From Escherichia phage vB_EcoS_G29-2, in sequence record NC_049822.1: a DNA stretch of 51,739 bases; one strand, written 5' to 3'. A program made the translations under genes and the position numbers. A model generated the notes under the pieces. That model was not told the origin of the DNA. It searched no databases and saw only the letters and a list, made by a program, of their open reading frames with translations. Of this stretch, positions 1-47,497 are shown piece by piece; position 1 is the stretch's first letter; each line of letters begins with the position of its first letter.

Positions 1-70
1 AGAGAAACACGGTCCTCTTGCATCCTTTCCGGCAATCCTGGCGAGCGCAACTGTTATTTCCGTTCCCAAT

Positions 71-1005: not shown

Positions 1006-1258
1006 GGCATTAATTGGAGTTTTGATTGCAATCGCTACCCTGACCGGATGCGAAAAGGCATCGGAATCAACCGTTGTCGTAGGCGTGGAGTCAGATTTCA
1101 AAGTCGGTCGCCTGTTCACTGTTGACGGATGCACAGCATACAGATTCTATGATAACGGTCGCGCGATCTATTACACCAATTGCAAAGGCGCAACGGATAG
1201 CACGTACAACAGCGGAAAGAACGTAATGCGCCAGCAAGTCACAACAGATATTAAATAG
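998..1258 (+). CDS. putative lipoprotein (signal peptide with lipobox LTGC)
   Basis: N-terminus MSKALIGVLIAIATLTG-C; start overlaps upstream stop; stop codon embedded in motif copy at 1254. Confidence 0.6.
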   Translation: MSKALIGVLIAIATLTGCEKASESTVVVGVESDFKVGRLFTVDGCTAYRFYDNGRAIYYTNCKGATDSTYNSGKNVMRQQVTTDIK

Positions 1259-1300
1259 CACTTTTTGTTAAAACGCCAGGTGCGAATCCTGGCATAATAG
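1254..1300 (+). promoter_or_regulatory. conserved 21-bp motif promoter (motif + spacer hairpin GCCAGG/CCTGGC + -10 ATAATA)
   Basis: AATAGCACTTTTTGTTAAAAC then 19 bp then ATAAT. Confidence 0.6.
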
Positions 1301-40640: not shown

Positions 40641-41046
40641 TAAAGGCGATTATCTGGAGTTTTACGAAAGAGATCCGACGGATACGCTAAAAGAGGAATC
40701 ACACCAGATCGGGGCGTTTCAATGGTTGACTTATGCTTACCCTGAATTGCTGGCATGGCATACGAAAAACGAGGGCGACAAGGGGATCGCCACCGCAATG
40801 ATGGATCAGCAAGCCGGACTCGTTAAGGGCGTAAGTGATTTTATCATCCTGATTGGATTAAAAGGCCGTTATCCGTTTGCAGCAATTGAGATGAAGCGCG
40901 TCAATAAGTCTGGAAAGGGTAAGGCTTCACCAGTCAGTAAGGAGCAAAAAGCCTTCTTACGACGTGTGCGCGAGCTTGGCGGATTCGCTGCCGTAACATA
41001 CGGATATAAGCAATTCATGATCGCTGTAGAATACATGATGAAATAG
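40627..41046 (+). CDS. VRR-NUC domain nuclease
   Basis: PD-(D/E)xK-like SDFIILIG...AIEMKR; start overlaps helicase stop. Confidence 0.6.
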   Translation: MAMTDKGDYLEFYERDPTDTLKEESHQIGAFQWLTYAYPELLAWHTKNEGDKGIATAMMDQQAGLVKGVSDFIILIGLKGRYPFAAIEMKRVNKSGKGKASPVSKEQKAFLRRVRELGGFAAVTYGYKQFMIAVEYMMK

Positions 41047-41088
41047 CACTTTTTGTTAAAACAGGCGCGAAGGATTGCGCCATAATAA
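41042..41088 (+). promoter_or_regulatory. conserved motif promoter (hairpin GGCGC/GCGCC, -10 CATAAT)
   Basis: motif then 19 bp then ATAATA. Confidence 0.55.
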
Positions 41089-41826: not shown

Positions 41827-42066
41827 ATGCAGAAAGAAAGAAGCGTTTATTTAAATGAAACTGGAGAGTGGTTGTTATTTCGCGCTATGGTTTGCGAGGC
41901 GCTTGATAAAAACGAGTTCATAAAACCGCTATTAGGTTGTGATCCGTGGGAGTTTACAAGCGCGCTTGATATGAGCTTTGAGGAAACAAGAAAACTACCG
42001 CTTGAAAAATGGCATGAGCAGATCGGTAAAGACTTGCAAGAGTTTTACGAATCCGCGACAAAATAG
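41827..42066 (+). CDS. hypothetical protein
   Basis: RBS GGAG; stop in motif copy at 42062. Confidence 0.45.
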   Translation: MQKERSVYLNETGEWLLFRAMVCEALDKNEFIKPLLGCDPWEFTSALDMSFEETRKLPLEKWHEQIGKDLQEFYESATK

Positions 42067-42107
42067 CACTTTTTGTTAAAAAGCCCGGCCCTGTGTCGGG
42101 CATAATT
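42062..42107 (+). promoter_or_regulatory. conserved motif promoter (hairpin GCCCG/CGGGC, -10 CATAAT)
   Basis: motif then 19 bp then ATAATT. Confidence 0.55.
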
Positions 42108-44616: not shown

Positions 44617-45015
44617 ATGCGAAAGTTATCAATAATCGCTATCGCTGTTATTTTGTCTGGATGTTCAAGCGTTACGCCACTGACCGGATTAATCGGTAGT
44701 AAGCCGGAAATCACAGCACAGGCAGGAGCGGAGAACGTAAAGCAGACCGTTGGCGTTACCGCAAAGCAGGACACCAGCACAAAACAGGAAACTACAATAA
44801 AGGAATCTGCGGTTGATAAGGTGGACACTTCCAGCAAGAAGGATTTCACTACGTCAACCATTCAGGCCAATACCATCAAGGCTGATAAAATCCAGGTTGT
44901 GCAGGGTGAGCAAAGGAAGTGGTACGATCCCATAATCTATTGCGCTGCAATTTTTAGCGGTCTTTTGTCAATGCTTTACTTTTCCTACCGCAAAGGCAAC
45001 AAAAAGGAGGCTTAA
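44617..45015 (+). CDS. unimolecular spanin (lipoprotein with C-terminal TM)
   Basis: lipobox LSG-C plus C-terminal TM IIYCAAIFSGLLSMLYF; arrangement as in T1 gp11. Confidence 0.7.
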   Translation: MRKLSIIAIAVILSGCSSVTPLTGLIGSKPEITAQAGAENVKQTVGVTAKQDTSTKQETTIKESAVDKVDTSSKKDFTTSTIQANTIKADKIQVVQGEQRKWYDPIIYCAAIFSGLLSMLYFSYRKGNKKEA

Positions 45016-45030
45016 CGCCTCCTTTGTTTT
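45004..45030. terminator. bidirectional terminator at convergence of lysis cassette and leftward block
   Basis: AGGAGGC-TTAA-CGCCTCCT + TTGTTTT. Confidence 0.7.
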
Positions 45031-45250
45031 ATAGTGCATCCATCAAATCTTGAAAGCTGTTTCCGCTATAATCATTCTCGACAAGAATGTAAGCACCTTT
45101 CTTCTTTATATCCCATAACATTTCATTGTATTCGTAACGATTTATTTCAAACGTGCTGCCATCTTCTCTTGTCGCAGTTCCTTTGTCGTTGAAAACATCA
45201 AAAGTTACATTGATGATTTTTGTCTCTTTCTTTGTTACTTTGATAGCCAT
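45029..45250 (-). CDS. hypothetical protein
   Basis: RBS GAGGA; downstream of minus-strand motif promoter 45283-45328. Confidence 0.5.
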   Translation of the reverse strand: MAIKVTKKETKIINVTFDVFNDKGTATREDGSTFEINRYEYNEMLWDIKKKGAYILVENDYSGNSFQDLMDAL

Positions 45251-45282
45251 TTTTAAAATCCTCATATTCGTTCCGATGAAAC

Positions 45283-45328
45283 AAATATACCCGATACGAG
45301 ATCGGGAGTTTTAACAAAAAGTGCTATT
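45283..45328 (-). promoter_or_regulatory. conserved motif promoter (hairpin CCCGAT/ATCGGG, -10 ATATTT)
   Basis: minus-strand motif then 19 bp. Confidence 0.5.
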
Positions 45329-45518
45329 CGATACGCTTTACAGTAACCAACAAAACGCCGTCCTCATCACACAAATTATGCTCTGATATGTTAAACGCTC
45401 GCATGTCAGAATGAATTAGCGTTAACATTGCGTGCATGAAGTCTTCATGTGAGATTGAACTTACGGCGCAGAACTTCAATATTTTGTCTATTAGCATTTG
45501 ACGTAAACAGTTCTTCAT
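45324..45518 (-). CDS. small hypothetical protein (start uncertain)
   Basis: stop TAG embedded in motif copy; overlaps upstream gene unless started at internal ATG 45437. Confidence 0.3.
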   Translation of the reverse strand: MKNCLRQMLIDKILKFCAVSSISHEDFMHAMLTLIHSDMRAFNISEHNLCDEDGVLLVTVKRIE

Positions 45519-45837
45519 CGCTCATTTCTCCGATCCGTAAAACATCCCTAACCCATTCGTTTTGCATACCTTCCAGGCTGTAAAGTTCAAACGAGAAAGG
45601 GCGATTTGCGGATCCTTTCTTACACCAGAACTTTCCACCAACTCCATCAAGATAACCAGCGGTCATCATTCTTGCGCAAAACTCTTTTGAAACGGCAGTA
45701 GCAAACATTCTCTGCGTAAATCCTGCGGCCCTTGCGAGCCGCTCACATTCTCTATGCTGAAAGATAAATTTTGCTATATGTTGACGCGTAAACCATTCGA
45801 ATGACTCACACCAGCGATACAGATCCAGAAGAAACAT
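45445..45837 (-). CDS. hypothetical protein
   Basis: 130 aa, start coupled (TAATTATG) to stop of upstream gene. Confidence 0.55.
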   Translation of the reverse strand: MFLLDLYRWCESFEWFTRQHIAKFIFQHRECERLARAAGFTQRMFATAVSKEFCARMMTAGYLDGVGGKFWCKKGSANRPFSFELYSLEGMQNEWVRDVLRIGEMSDEELFTSNANRQNIEVLRRKFNLT

Positions 45838-45839
45838 AA

Positions 45840-47423
45840 TTACCCCAGCAATGTTGGATTTACAAAAACAACGCCATTAATCACACAAATATAATTTCTT
45901 TCTTCAAGCATCGGCAGCAGTTGCGTTTCCATACGCTTCATTACGCCAGCCTGGCCAACAAACGGCTTAACTTTTCGTGCAGCCTCATATATGGCGCGAA
46001 CATTCAAGATCCCCTTGTTAGCCTTACCGTGTCGAGTGATAATCTCGATTAGTTTACCCATTTCAGCATCATCACCAGCATAGCCAGAAGCGTTGGCGGC
46101 GCTAATGTATGTTTTGCTCAACTCGCTAAACATCAGCAGTGCTTCTTGAACGGTTTCAACTTCAATCTCTTTCGACTTCTGAGGGTATCCACCAGGATTA
46201 AACCAGTTGCGGATAGTGTGCAAAACCGAAGCAATCCTGATCACCTGCTTATCCATTTTGCCAAGAGCACCGCGCAGCATTGTATGCGAATACTTTCCGC
46301 CATCAGCAAGGTGCGGCTCCATCTCCTGACGAGCTATGTTAAGAACTCGCATTGCTGATTTGCTGATCTTAAGCTGGATGTTTGATTCACTCATGATGTT
46401 ATGGATCAGCTTAAAATATTGACTTTTCAGTTCTCCATCAACAGGCTCATAAGTAGAATCACCGTTATCATCAACAAACTTTCGACGACCTAAAAATGAT
46501 TCCTCACGCACAAGCAAATAACGCTCACTCACACCGATACCGCGCGATCCTGCATCCATGATGGCATTGATTGTTTCATCCTGGGCAATCACCGCCATAC
46601 AGCCAAGAGCTTTAAAACTCATATTGTTGTCAGCGTTTGCACGAGCTATAGAAACATGACCATGATCCCATGCTTTCAGCACAAGTTCGCTGTTGGTTTT
46701 ACGTTCGCTATTAGCATATGTCAGACCTAAAAGGCTGTTAATACTCGTTGCCTCGTCTGAAATCACAGCAAAGTTACCCTGGCGATTGTTGATTCTTGCA
46801 AGTCCTTCCGGCGTGGTGTCGGACACAGGGAAAACAATGTCACACATCTTTTCCAGTTTTTCTTCCAGATCTTCTTTCTCCTGGTACAGAGATTCCATAT
46901 CAGCGCCGGAGCGCTCGCTTTTCATCTCTTTTGCAAGACCTGCCAACTTTGCCTGAATCTTTTTTCTTTCCTTCTTTCGCTGATCGTTAATTCTTTCCAC
47001 TTCTGCAACCATTGGAGCAAGTGCCAGGCTGTTAACGGCAGATTTACCAGTTGAAGGAGGCTGGCTTGTGACAACATAAAGAGCGGTCGGCTGATCCGTT
47101 CCGTGATACTCAACCGTGAAGCGTCCAAGCATTGCAGCAGACACGCAGCCGATAAAATGCATATATGCCGATGATTCAGGGAACTGAACTGAGCGAGCAA
47201 TGTTGCGCGCCAACTTACCAACAACATCAACATCATTGCCAAGAGAAATTACAGGGTAGCGATCATTTCCGTTATTAACATCATTAACCTCACCCCAAAA
47301 GCTGGACGATTGACGGTATCCGTTTGCCTGAATGGACACGCGCACCGGAGACAATCCTTGTGCATCAGCTAATTCGATAATTTGTTTTGGTGTTAGTTTG
47401 TTGGTTTCAAACGAAAAATTCAT
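45840..47423 (-). CDS. P-loop NTPase-containing protein (putative replication-associated)
   Basis: 527 aa from RBS-supported ATG (GGAG); Walker A-like SQPPSTGKSA. Confidence 0.6.
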   Translation of the reverse strand: MNFSFETNKLTPKQIIELADAQGLSPVRVSIQANGYRQSSSFWGEVNDVNNGNDRYPVISLGNDVDVVGKLARNIARSVQFPESSAYMHFIGCVSAAMLGRFTVEYHGTDQPTALYVVTSQPPSTGKSAVNSLALAPMVAEVERINDQRKKERKKIQAKLAGLAKEMKSERSGADMESLYQEKEDLEEKLEKMCDIVFPVSDTTPEGLARINNRQGNFAVISDEATSINSLLGLTYANSERKTNSELVLKAWDHGHVSIARANADNNMSFKALGCMAVIAQDETINAIMDAGSRGIGVSERYLLVREESFLGRRKFVDDNGDSTYEPVDGELKSQYFKLIHNIMSESNIQLKISKSAMRVLNIARQEMEPHLADGGKYSHTMLRGALGKMDKQVIRIASVLHTIRNWFNPGGYPQKSKEIEVETVQEALLMFSELSKTYISAANASGYAGDDAEMGKLIEIITRHGKANKGILNVRAIYEAARKVKPFVGQAGVMKRMETQLLPMLEERNYICVINGVVFVNPTLLG

Positions 47424-47452
47424 TGATGATAACTCCTTTTTTTGATGCGGCA

Positions 47453-47497
47453 ATAATACCGCACCAATGCTACCCGCATTTAACAAAAAATGCTATT
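47453..47497 (-). promoter_or_regulatory. conserved motif promoter (variant, -10 TATTAT in hairpin loop)
   Basis: AATAGCATTTTTTGTTAAAT then 19 bp then TATTAT. Confidence 0.5.

What the first reader, a model, noticed from the sequence alone, without database searches (positions are those of the whole stretch)
45324..45837. Ambiguous overlapping gene pair
ORF 45324-45518 ends with its stop inside a motif promoter, the pattern seen for real genes, but its longest form overlaps 45445-45837 by 74 nt in another frame. An internal ATG at 45437 would give a 37-aa product with no overlap.
Basis: seen in the sequence. Interest (0 to 1): 0.25.

Follow-up and report, generated by a model that had tools for sequence, protein, structure and literature searches.

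The report
Conserved overlapping phage gene pair
Two real genes of a T1-like coliphage share 74 bases in different reading frames, and comparison with hundreds of related phages shows that the small gene makes the full 64-residue protein, not the 37-residue one; this settles an annotation question and is otherwise ordinary.

Summary
The window is a Hanrivervirus (Drexlerviridae), 99.9% identical to Escherichia phage egaa here. On the minus strand, 45837-45445 encodes a 130-aa winged-helix protein, mislabelled 'YdbL' (PHROG 2794). 45518-45324 encodes a 64-aa protein (PHROG 9539) in the +1 phase. They share 74 nt.

Public records disagree. Some annotate only one gene, some the 37-aa form, and some both with the overlap.

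Comparative evidence settles it for the 64-aa form starting at ATG 45518:
- tblastn finds the full-length product in 692 phage records.
- Of 80 loci chosen only by YdbL homology, 67 carry it, always in phase +1 and always overlapping (35-146 nt).
- The Met at 45437 is not conserved and has no Shine-Dalgarno sequence. ATG 45518 has GGAG 9 nt upstream.
- Nucleotide diversity halves inside the overlap.
- In relatives with a homing endonuclease inserted between the genes, the N-terminal part sits on its own DNA and still evolves as coding sequence.
- AlphaFold2 folds all 64 residues as one domain (pLDDT 94).

Function is unknown. The overlap is already annotated in some GenBank records but is missing from the curated T1 and TLS reference annotations. 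Interest is low.

The parts
45324..45518 (-). Small gene: 64-aa protein (PHROG 9539). Start ATG 45518, stop TAG 45326-45324. Predicted fold is helix 2-20, helix 24-42 and a beta-hairpin at 46-50/56-61.
   Evidence: ORF. PHROG 9539, E=3e-23. tblastn finds 692 phage records, all covering at least 80% of the query. Profile searches return products that are mostly 62-73 aa. AF2 pLDDT is 93.9. Third codon positions are the most variable in the non-overlapped part.
45528..45531 (-). Shine-Dalgarno GGAG for the small gene, 9 nt before ATG 45518. It lies inside the YdbL codons for I-G-E-M.
   Evidence: Sequence. Anti-SD duplex is -6.6 kcal/mol, within the best 3% of the 913 ATGs on this strand. The value for ATG 45437 is -1.0. 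GGAG, GGGG or GAGA sits at the same place in most genera. The RNA around the start is no more structured than shuffled sequence (z = +1.28).
45445..45837 (-). 130-aa winged-helix-turn-helix protein (legacy name 'YdbL', PHROG 2794). Start ATG 45837 is preceded by GGGG (45846-45843) and follows the helicase stop.
45445..45518 (-). 74-nt dual-coding segment. It encodes YdbL residues 107-130 (DEELFTSNANRQNIEVLRRKFNLT) and small-protein residues 1-25 in the +1 phase.
   Evidence: Nucleotide diversity across 27 distinct genomes is 0.196 here, against 0.397 upstream and 0.331 downstream. YdbL third positions fall from 0.50 to 0.20. The phase is open in all 38 loci of this class where the genes overlap. 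Elsewhere in YdbL the same phase has 4-6 stops per 100 codons.
45435..45437 (-). Internal ATG (Met28), the proposed start of the 37-aa form. Rejected as the main start.
   Evidence: Met28 is Ile, Val, Glu, Leu or Asn in Warwickvirus, Changchunvirus, Tlsvirus, Tunavirus, Webervirus and HazelMika-like phages. It has no SD. It lies in the middle of predicted helix 2.
45309..45329 (-). 21-nt Drexlerviridae direct repeat (aaATAGCACTTTTTGTTAAAA). Its TAG is the stop of the small gene.
   Evidence: Described for TLS, with function unknown (PMC11447400).
45268..45306 (-). Conserved spacer after the repeat: hairpin CCCGATCTCGTATCGGG (45306-45290), -10-like TATATT (45289-45284) and box CATCGGAACGA (45278-45268). 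It lies upstream of the next gene (SD GAGGA 45263-45259, ATG 45250).
   Evidence: The 60-bp stretch 45267-45328 is 82-97% identical in distant Drexlerviridae whose flanking genes have diverged.

Best explanation
The region holds two genuine protein genes on the minus strand, read in different phases and sharing 74 nt.

The upstream gene (45837-45445) encodes a 130-aa winged-helix DNA-binding protein. The downstream gene (45518-45324) encodes a 64-aa, single-domain alpha-alpha-beta-beta protein.

The small gene has its own initiation site. GGAG (45531-45528) and ATG 45518 are both written into the codons of the conserved IGEMSDEELF motif of the upstream protein. Ribosomes are inferred to start there independently on the helicase-YdbL-small-gene transcript and to stop at the TAG inside the 21-nt family repeat.

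In the shared DNA the small protein's helix 1 is the better-conserved reading. The last roughly 19 residues of YdbL are largely a by-product: YdbL simply reads on until the first stop that happens to fall in its phase. That explains why the overlap ranges from 35 to 146 nt between genera, and why YdbL ends right after ...ELF in phages that lack the small gene.

Shown here: conservation, phase, coding signature, start signals and fold. Inferred: actual translation, independent initiation, and any function. The position next to the DUF3987 ATPase/helicase suggests a DNA-replication or transcription accessory role. That is a guess.
For: Identity: the window is 99.9% identical to Escherichia phage egaa, genus Hanrivervirus.

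Breadth:
- tblastn of the 64-aa product finds 692 phage records, all covering at least 80% of the query, down to about 36% identity.
- An alignment-profile search finds 62 clusters, most of 63-66 aa.
- An exhaustive HMM search finds 23 clusters at the 50% level. Of these, 18 are stand-alone proteins of 62-73 aa, 17 of which match nearly the whole profile. The others are two truncated variants and three long proteins with weak local matches.

Unbiased sample: of 80 IMG/VR loci picked by YdbL homology alone, 67 carry the small ORF. All 67 are in phase +1 and all overlap YdbL, by 35-146 nt. 65 have an ATG at profile position 1-2.

Start codon rescue: where the Asp codon is GAC, so the usual ATG is lost, the next codon supplies an ATG (GAC GAT GAA). 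This is also seen in L107 and Vc1.

Met28 is not conserved. L9 and I10 are invariant among 13 genus representatives and at least 90% conserved in 48 sequences.

Dual-coding signature: diversity is 0.196 in the overlap against 0.397 and 0.331 in the flanks (site permutation p<5e-5). YdbL wobble falls from 0.50 to 0.20 (Mann-Whitney p=2e-7). In the non-overlapped part, third positions of the small gene score 0.525 against 0.173 for second positions.

Natural experiments:
- In L013, L014, L015, L017, L018 and BEK12B an HNH endonuclease gene separates the two genes. The small gene's N-part then lies on its own DNA. That copy has 4 stops in the YdbL phase. It is 28-33% diverged in nucleotides from the window (17-20 of 60), yet 14-16 of 20 residues are kept (pS 0.64-0.73, pN 0.20-0.24).
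- In HazelMika-like phages YdbL stops after 35 nt of overlap, and small-protein residues from about 13 onwards are single-coded and still homologous.

Start signal: SD -6.6 kcal/mol at 45518 against -1.0 at 45437.

Fold: AF2 pLDDT 93.9, with helix 1 (residues 2-20, encoded in the overlap) part of the domain.

The YdbL tail varies in length and sequence. Homologues are 111-131 aa long (153 aa in Webervirus). The tail has low model confidence (block pLDDT 59). Twelve Rtp-like loci without the small gene have YdbL ending ...ELFS* or ...ELFA*.
Against: There is no direct evidence of expression: no ribosome profiling, proteomics or transcript map was available.

The SD is weak in some lineages, for example GACGAG or GATGAA contexts.

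Presence of an ATG at the conserved Asp-Glu/Asp codons is not very improbable by chance. On my rough assumption that about 60% of Asp codons are GAT (not measured here), it is roughly 0.6-0.84 per lineage, so start-codon conservation alone is weak evidence.

A few variants break the pattern:
- L063 has no ATG at the N-terminus (a TTG is possible).
- L020 has a frame-changing deletion in the N-part.
- L019 fuses 11 HNH residues to the last 27 residues.
- Vibrio phage Vc1 has premature stops near the C-terminus.
This shows the N-part is not indispensable in every genome, or that these copies are decaying or misassembled.

Met8 (ATG 45497) cannot be excluded as an additional minor start in this phage.

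Within the 74-nt class the YdbL tail is itself fairly conserved (amino-acid diversity 0.31 against 0.25 for the small protein). So 'by-product' rests mainly on comparison between genera.

Function is unknown for both proteins.
Confidence: 0.87

Rival explanations
1. The small gene is real but starts at ATG 45437. It would give a 37-aa product with no overlap, as annotated in JLBYU41 and pSf-1.
For: Two GenBank records annotate it this way. This form avoids any overlap. The most conserved block of the family is the C-terminal ~28 residues, and two odd contigs (L019, L020) keep only that part in frame.
Against: Met28 is absent in most genera. There is no SD. Residues 9-27 are conserved as protein even where they are not overlapped. 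Diversity and wobble patterns show selection on this phase inside the overlap. A 37-aa product would start in the middle of helix 2 and lose helix 1 of a confidently predicted domain. Family members are mostly 62-73 aa.
Confidence: 0.03
2. The small ORF is not translated at all, as implied by the egaa, T1 and TLS annotations. Its conservation would reflect YdbL coding plus a conserved non-coding element upstream of the 21-nt repeat.
For: Curated T1 and TLS annotations omit it. The adjacent intergenic 60 bp is very highly conserved. Spurious ORFs of this size are common in the window.
Against: The 120 nt downstream of the YdbL stop show a clear codon periodicity in the small-ORF phase (diversity 0.525, 0.295 and 0.173 at positions 3, 1 and 2). 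Homology holds at protein level down to about 36% identity. AF2 confidence is 94. There is no Rfam hit.
Confidence: 0.02
3. The small reading frame is expressed only as a C-terminal extension of YdbL, through a programmed +1 (or -2) ribosomal frameshift in the overlap. The product would be a fusion, in the manner of phage tail G/GT proteins.
For: The two frames overlap on the same strand in every genome that has both.
Against: In HNH-containing genomes the small gene is separated from YdbL by a whole gene, and stops block the YdbL phase. It must therefore be translated on its own. A start codon and SD are conserved at its 5' end. The required shift is +1, not the common -1. By eye I saw no slippery X XXY YYZ heptamer in the overlap. 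Overlap length varies 35-146 nt.
Confidence: 0.02
4. The small gene is real and overlapping, but in this phage translation starts mainly at Met8 (ATG 45497). That would give 57 aa and a 53-nt overlap.
For: HNH-containing relatives start only three residues before the conserved Leu9, so residues 1-7 are dispensable. The N-terminal seven residues are the least conserved.
Against: Met8 is Lys, Ser, Gln, His, Thr or Gly elsewhere. It has no SD (-1.0 kcal/mol). Met1 is the conserved start and has the SD.
Confidence: 0.05

Closest known systems
PHROG 9539 / annotated 'hypothetical protein' of Hanrivervirus and relatives (e.g. haarsle gp62, aalborv gp65, Stevie gp42, DanielBernoulli bas08_0046)
   Same: It is the same protein family. 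The window product is 97-100% identical to annotated proteins. The length is the same (64-66 aa) and the position is the same, after the winged-helix gene and before the 21-nt repeat.
   Different: Nothing differs in sequence. The family has no assigned function. It is absent from the egaa, T1 and TLS annotations and truncated to 37 aa in JLBYU41 and pSf-1.
Lambda Rz/Rz1 and similar same-strand +1 overlapping phage gene pairs (from general knowledge)
   Same: A second gene is read in the +1 phase of a first, with its own Shine-Dalgarno and start codon inside the first gene's coding sequence. The two are co-transcribed.
   Different: Rz1 is wholly embedded, and the two products are known partners (spanin subunits). 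Here only the 3' 74 nt of the first gene is shared. Much of the shared part of the first protein looks dispensable. No functional link between the products has been shown.
Winged-helix (ArsR/MarR/IdeR-like) DNA-binding domains; T1 gp70 'HTH domain-containing protein'
   Different: There is no sequence-level match to any Pfam, NCBIfam or PDB family. The DNA target is unknown. The C-terminal half (residues 76-130) has no clear counterpart.
Free-standing HNH homing endonuclease insertions between phage genes (general knowledge)
   Same: Relatives carry an HNH_3 gene exactly between the two genes. The flanking sequence is sharply more diverged on the side next to the insertion: pS is 0.64-0.73 in the N-part against 0.13-0.18 in the C-part of the small gene.
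   Different: The window has no endonuclease gene here. In the relatives the insertion sits in what is an overlap in the window. The shared segment therefore exists as two diverged copies, each keeping only one reading frame.

Membership tests
PHROG 9539 (small Drexlerviridae protein, unknown function) | Significant full-length match to the family profile | tested here: met
   E=3.2e-23, residues 6-63 matched to profile positions 6-63 of 64. The 37-aa form matches only profile positions 29-63.
PHROG 2794 ('YdbL'-labelled Drexlerviridae protein) | Significant full-length match to the family profile | tested here: met
   E=3.4e-59, residues 1-127 matched to profile positions 1-126 of 129.
E. coli YdbL family (DUF1318, as I recall it) | Sequence match to the Pfam model of the bacterial YdbL family | tested here: not met
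   A Pfam-A scan at E<=0.1 returned no family at all for the 130-aa protein, and NCBIfam returned none. The name is an inherited label ('YdbL [Salmonella virus SP126]').
Winged helix-turn-helix DNA-binding proteins | Three-helix bundle plus beta-hairpin wing fold | tested here: met
Winged helix-turn-helix DNA-binding proteins | Sequence-specific DNA binding | not testable with these tools
   Needs EMSA or ChIP. No target site was identified.
Same-strand out-of-phase overlapping (dual-coding) gene pair | Two ORFs in different phases share DNA | tested here: met
   45445-45518, 74 nt, phase +1. The same holds in 67 of 67 loci that have both genes.
Same-strand out-of-phase overlapping (dual-coding) gene pair | Both phases under purifying selection in the shared segment | tested here: met
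   Diversity is halved. Wobble positions of both phases are suppressed relative to each gene's single-coded part. The phase is open in 38 of 38 overlapping loci. In the same phase upstream in YdbL, only 1 of 77 control 24-codon windows is open in all 27 distinct genomes analysed.
Same-strand out-of-phase overlapping (dual-coding) gene pair | Both products are made | not testable with these tools
   No expression data. Only the in-silico start signals are available.
Programmed ribosomal frameshift fusion (tail G/GT type) | Downstream frame lacks its own start and is reached by slippage at a conserved slippery site | tested here: not met
   The downstream frame has a conserved ATG and SD. It is expressed from separate DNA in HNH-containing genomes. 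The phase is +1, not -1.

The most novel reading that the evidence does not exclude
The winged-helix protein, with or without its small co-encoded partner, may be the missing trans-acting factor for the 21-nt Drexlerviridae repeat aaATAGCACnnnTTGnTAAAA.

The repeat sits at a fixed distance upstream of a -10-like hexamer, with no usable -35. This layout is reminiscent of T4 middle promoters, which are served by MotA plus the small protein AsiA. If the idea were right, the overlap would couple production of an activator and its cofactor.

The evidence does not exclude this and barely supports it:
- The repeat is not a dyad.
- The TLS paper reports similar repeats in Rtp, and the Rtp-like loci sampled here lack the small gene. 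So the small protein at least cannot be essential for repeat function.
Probability: 0.06. Interest if true: 0.6.

Novelty: already known. Interest (0 to 1): 0.2.

Why it matters
The main value is for annotation. A gene conserved across most of the Drexlerviridae sampled here (Tempevirinae, Tunavirinae, Webervirus) is missing from the curated T1 and TLS reference genomes and from the window's closest relative, egaa. It is also truncated to 37 aa in other records.

The correct model (64 aa, start 45518, 74-nt overlap) can be propagated. The rules found here are usable for re-annotating the family:
- the start lies inside the SD(E/D)ELF codons of the winged-helix gene;
- the small gene is in phase +1;
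- its stop lies in the 21-nt repeat whenever a downstream gene follows.

The locus is also a clean teaching case of dual coding. Relatives with a homing endonuclease carry the shared segment as two copies, each of which has kept only one reading frame. This is an unusually direct demonstration that both frames matter.

It does not bear on any major open question. The function of both proteins, and of the 21-nt repeat, stays unknown.

Tried and rejected
Function searches on the 64-aa protein found nothing informative:
- Pfam, NCBIfam and PADLOC: no hits.
- PDB by sequence profile: none.
- Foldseek against BFVD: only uncharacterised members of the same family.
- The AFDB50 library was not available.

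Function searches on the 130-aa protein gave only the generic winged-helix fold.

An RNA element at the small gene's start was rejected. Folding of 45470-45580 is weaker than shuffled sequence (z = +1.28), and Rfam and tRNA scans of the whole window were empty.

The sigma-70 promoter scan gave no more sites than shuffles around the locus. With TTGTTA as -35, the spacer to the -10-like hexamer is about 21 nt. The repeat is therefore not a plain sigma-70 promoter.

Literature searches for the repeat sequence, for 'YdbL' in phages, and for overlapping genes in Drexlerviridae found nothing on this gene pair. Only the TLS paper on the repeat was relevant.

The frameshift-fusion idea was rejected; see the rival explanations.

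My first regular expressions miscounted the tail length, missed divergent motifs and let one HNH locus into the alignment. These were corrected. One search checked that the no-stop filter removed only HNH-type loci.

Full report
**What the window is.** The 1.4 kb around the finding is 99.9% identical to Escherichia phage egaa (Drexlerviridae, Tempevirinae, Hanrivervirus). It matches 150 phage records at megablast level. The local gene order is holin, endolysin and u-spanin on the plus strand. Converging on the minus strand are a DUF3987 ATPase/helicase, 'YdbL', the small ORF and a 73-aa gene.

**The observation.**
- The small ORF runs from ATG 45518 to TAG 45324 on the minus strand (64 aa).
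- A TGA two codons upstream closes its phase, so 45518 is the first possible start.
- The 130-aa ORF runs from 45837 to 45445.
- The two share 45445-45518 (74 nt), with the small ORF in phase +1.
- ATG 45437 would give 37 aa.

The TAG lies in ATAGCACTTTTTGTTAAAA (45327-45309). This is the 21-nt direct repeat aaATAGCACnnnTTGnTAAAA that Kropinski and colleagues described in TLS. They found 18 intergenic copies about 76 nt upstream of start codons, and they list its function as an open question (PMC11447400). The window has 19 copies with up to 4 mismatches. In 14 of them the repeat, or the 3 nt before it, contains the stop of an open frame of at least 50 codons. Nine use the TAG itself. The label 'promoter' is not established.

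**Public annotation really is inconsistent.**
- egaa annotates only a truncated 87-aa YdbL.
- haarsle annotates only the 64-aa ORF.
- JLBYU41 and pSf-1 annotate the 37-aa form plus the 130-aa YdbL.
- WaterSpirit, PaulSarasin, DanielBernoulli, Stevie and KLB26 annotate both genes with the overlap.
- The curated T1 and TLS records annotate only the winged-helix gene.

**The small ORF is a real, widely conserved gene.**
- It matches PHROG 9539 (E=3e-23).
- tblastn with the 64-aa product finds 692 phage records, every one covering at least 80% of the query. Identities go down to about 36%. The hits include Tunavirus T1, Tlsvirus, Webervirus and others.
- A profile search of 5.8 billion proteins returns 62 clusters, most of 63-66 aa.
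- An exhaustive HMM search of 1.84 billion representatives returns 23 clusters. Of these, 18 are stand-alone proteins of 62-73 aa, 17 of which match nearly the whole profile.
- In the 120 nt downstream of the YdbL stop, nucleotide diversity across 27 distinct genomes is 0.525, 0.295 and 0.173 at codon positions 3, 1 and 2 of the small ORF. This is the signature of a translated frame.

**The long form is the right one.** Seven lines of evidence agree.

(a) I took a sample that did not depend on the small ORF: 80 IMG/VR loci retrieved by YdbL homology. Of these, 67 contain the small gene. It is in phase +1 in 67 of 67. It overlaps the 3' end of YdbL in 67 of 67, by 35-146 nt. An ATG aligns with profile position 1 or 2 in 65 of 67.

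(b) The start is embedded in the conserved SD(E/D)ELF codons of YdbL (GAT GAA read as ATG A..). Where the Asp codon is GAC, the next codon restores an ATG three bases on (GAC GAT GAA). L107 and Vc1 show other such rescues. By itself this is only moderate evidence, because an ATG here is not improbable by chance.

(c) Met28 (45437) is Ile, Val, Leu, Glu or Asn in other genera. L9 and I10 are invariant among 13 genus representatives and at least 90% conserved among 48 sequences.

(d) ATG 45518 has GGAG 9 nt upstream. The anti-SD duplex is -6.6 kcal/mol, within the best 3% of 913 ATGs on the strand. ATG 45437 and ATG 45497 have none (-1.0). The RNA around 45518 is no more structured than shuffled sequence.

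(e) Within the overlap, nucleotide diversity drops to 0.196, from 0.397 upstream and 0.331 downstream (permutation p<5e-5). YdbL wobble positions, which are second positions of the small ORF, drop from 0.50 to 0.20 (p=2e-7). The most variable phase becomes the small ORF's third position. As a control, the same phase elsewhere in YdbL carries 4-6 stops per 100 codons. Only 1 of 77 sliding 24-codon windows is open in all 27 distinct genomes, whereas the overlap is open in all 38 loci where the genes overlap.

(f) Nature has done the experiment. In L013-L018 and in the isolate BEK12B, an HNH homing endonuclease gene lies between the two genes. There the YdbL tail (...ANRQQIEALRKRYGLE*) is encoded before the endonuclease gene. 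The small protein's N-part (MESKLIDEILKFCATSQISHDDF...) is encoded after it, on separate DNA.
- The downstream copy has four stops in the YdbL phase.
- It differs from the window at 17-20 of 60 nt.
- It keeps 14-16 of 20 residues (pS 0.64-0.73, pN 0.20-0.24).
- The upstream copy has lost or scrambled the small-ORF phase.

 Likewise, in HazelMika-like phages YdbL stops after only 35 nt of overlap. The small protein's residues from about 13 on are then single-coded and remain homologous.

(g) AlphaFold2 with a 48-sequence alignment gives pLDDT 93.9 for one compact domain: helix 2-20, helix 24-42 and a hairpin at 46-61. Helix 1 is encoded entirely in the overlap, and a 37-aa product would start in the middle of helix 2.

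Its tail after ...ELF is variable in length and sequence. There are 0-1 residues in Rtp- and TR2-like phages, 5 in HazelMika, 19 here, 24 in T1 and 43 in Webervirus. Model confidence in the tail is low. The 12 loci without the small gene all have YdbL ending ...ELFS* or ...ELFA*, followed at once by a terminator. I infer that the tail is mostly collateral read-through into the small gene. Its most conserved residues (..NR..) are imposed by the invariant Leu-Ile-(Asp) of the other phase.

**How it most likely works.** The helicase, YdbL and the small gene form one transcription unit. Ribosomes initiate independently at the internal SD/ATG, translate the +1 phase and stop at the TAG in the repeat. 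Independent initiation is inferred from three things: the conserved signals, the lack of RNA structure, and the fact that the gene still stands alone when an endonuclease gene separates it from YdbL. Expression itself is not shown.

Function is unknown for both products. Every family, structure and defence-system search on the small protein was empty. Proximity to the DUF3987 ATPase suggests a replication or transcription accessory role. That is a guess.

**Exceptions.**
- L063 lacks an N-terminal ATG (a TTG is available).
- L105 has a longer N-terminus.
- L020 has a decayed endonuclease gene and a frame-changing deletion in the N-part.
- L019 fuses the first 11 endonuclease codons in frame to the last 27 codons.
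- Vibrio phage Vc1 has premature stops near the 3' end.

 These are single contigs or single records. They do not change the picture, but they show the gene can decay.

**Verdict.** The ambiguity is resolved in favour of the overlapping 64-aa form. The feature is a genuine dual-coding segment, but of a familiar kind. It is already annotated correctly in several GenBank records and in PHROGs. The value is in annotation, because the T1, TLS and egaa records lack the gene.

Noticed in passing
window, 19 sites, e.g. 1255-1273(+), 41043-41061(+), 42063-42081(+), 48172-48154(-), 50222-50204(-), 45327-45309(-): The 21-nt Drexlerviridae repeat is part of a larger module with fixed spacing. After the repeat come about 19-20 nt (often a G+C-rich hairpin), a -10-like hexamer ((C/T)ATAAT or TATATT), a box CATCGAAACGA, an SD and a start codon 62-81 nt from the repeat start. 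With a preceding TAA, the repeat carries stops in all three phases (TAA-ATAG...TAA). TTGTTA lies about 21 nt from the -10-like hexamer, too far for a normal -35. Stevie annotates the hairpins as terminators. The function is an open question in the TLS paper (PMC11447400).
   Followed up: partly
window 45267-45328: This intergenic stretch (repeat, hairpin CCCGATCTCGTATCGGG and the -10-like box) is 82-97% identical in Tlsvirus, Tunavirus and other distant Drexlerviridae whose flanking genes are only about 50% identical at protein level. It is better conserved than the genes around it.
   Followed up: no
L014 1056-1529, L017 1056-1529, L118 (BEK12B) 961-1347, L029 (pSf-1) 1241-1753: HNH homing endonuclease genes are inserted at two different places in relatives: between YdbL and the small gene, and in pSf-1 between the helicase and YdbL. 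Next to the first insertion, divergence of the small gene jumps from pS 0.13-0.18 to 0.64-0.73 at about codon 27. This looks like a mosaic or co-conversion boundary. L019 and L020 carry decayed remnants of the endonuclease gene.
   Followed up: partly
window 45445-45837 vs egaa, haarsle, T1, TLS records: Annotation errors in reference records. egaa YdbL is truncated to 87 aa. haarsle lacks YdbL altogether. T1 (AY216660) and TLS (AY308796) lack the 64-aa gene. The name 'YdbL' has no support from Pfam.
   Followed up: yes
window 45840-47486(-): The longest helicase ORF (TTG 47486, 548 aa) begins inside a copy of the 21-nt repeat (47496-47478). The annotated 527-aa form starts at ATG 47423, which is 73 nt after the repeat start and fits the spacing rule. 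Likewise, the 78-aa longest ORF 45029-45265 should start at ATG 45250 (73 aa, SD GAGGA).
   Followed up: partly
search results: About 20 records named 'Campylobacter phage' (MG0656xx, host C. jejuni) are 94-95% identical to this coliphage region. Records named Pseudomonas phage Motto, Streptococcus phage MBBL140 and Vibrio phage Vc1 also carry the Drexlerviridae repeat or the small gene. The host labels of these records look doubtful.
   Followed up: no
L032 (Vibrio phage Vc1) 886-1092: The Vc1 homologue of the small gene keeps a start (ATG shifted by one codon) but has two in-frame stops near the C-terminus (...EHQLTA*N*ELLIHVRKF*). It may be a pseudogene, a truncated variant or a sequencing error.
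   Followed up: no
window 45003-45025: A strong bidirectional terminator-like hairpin (AAAGGAGGC-TTAAC-GCCTCCTTT) lies between the converging spanin gene and the 73-aa gene.
   Followed up: no
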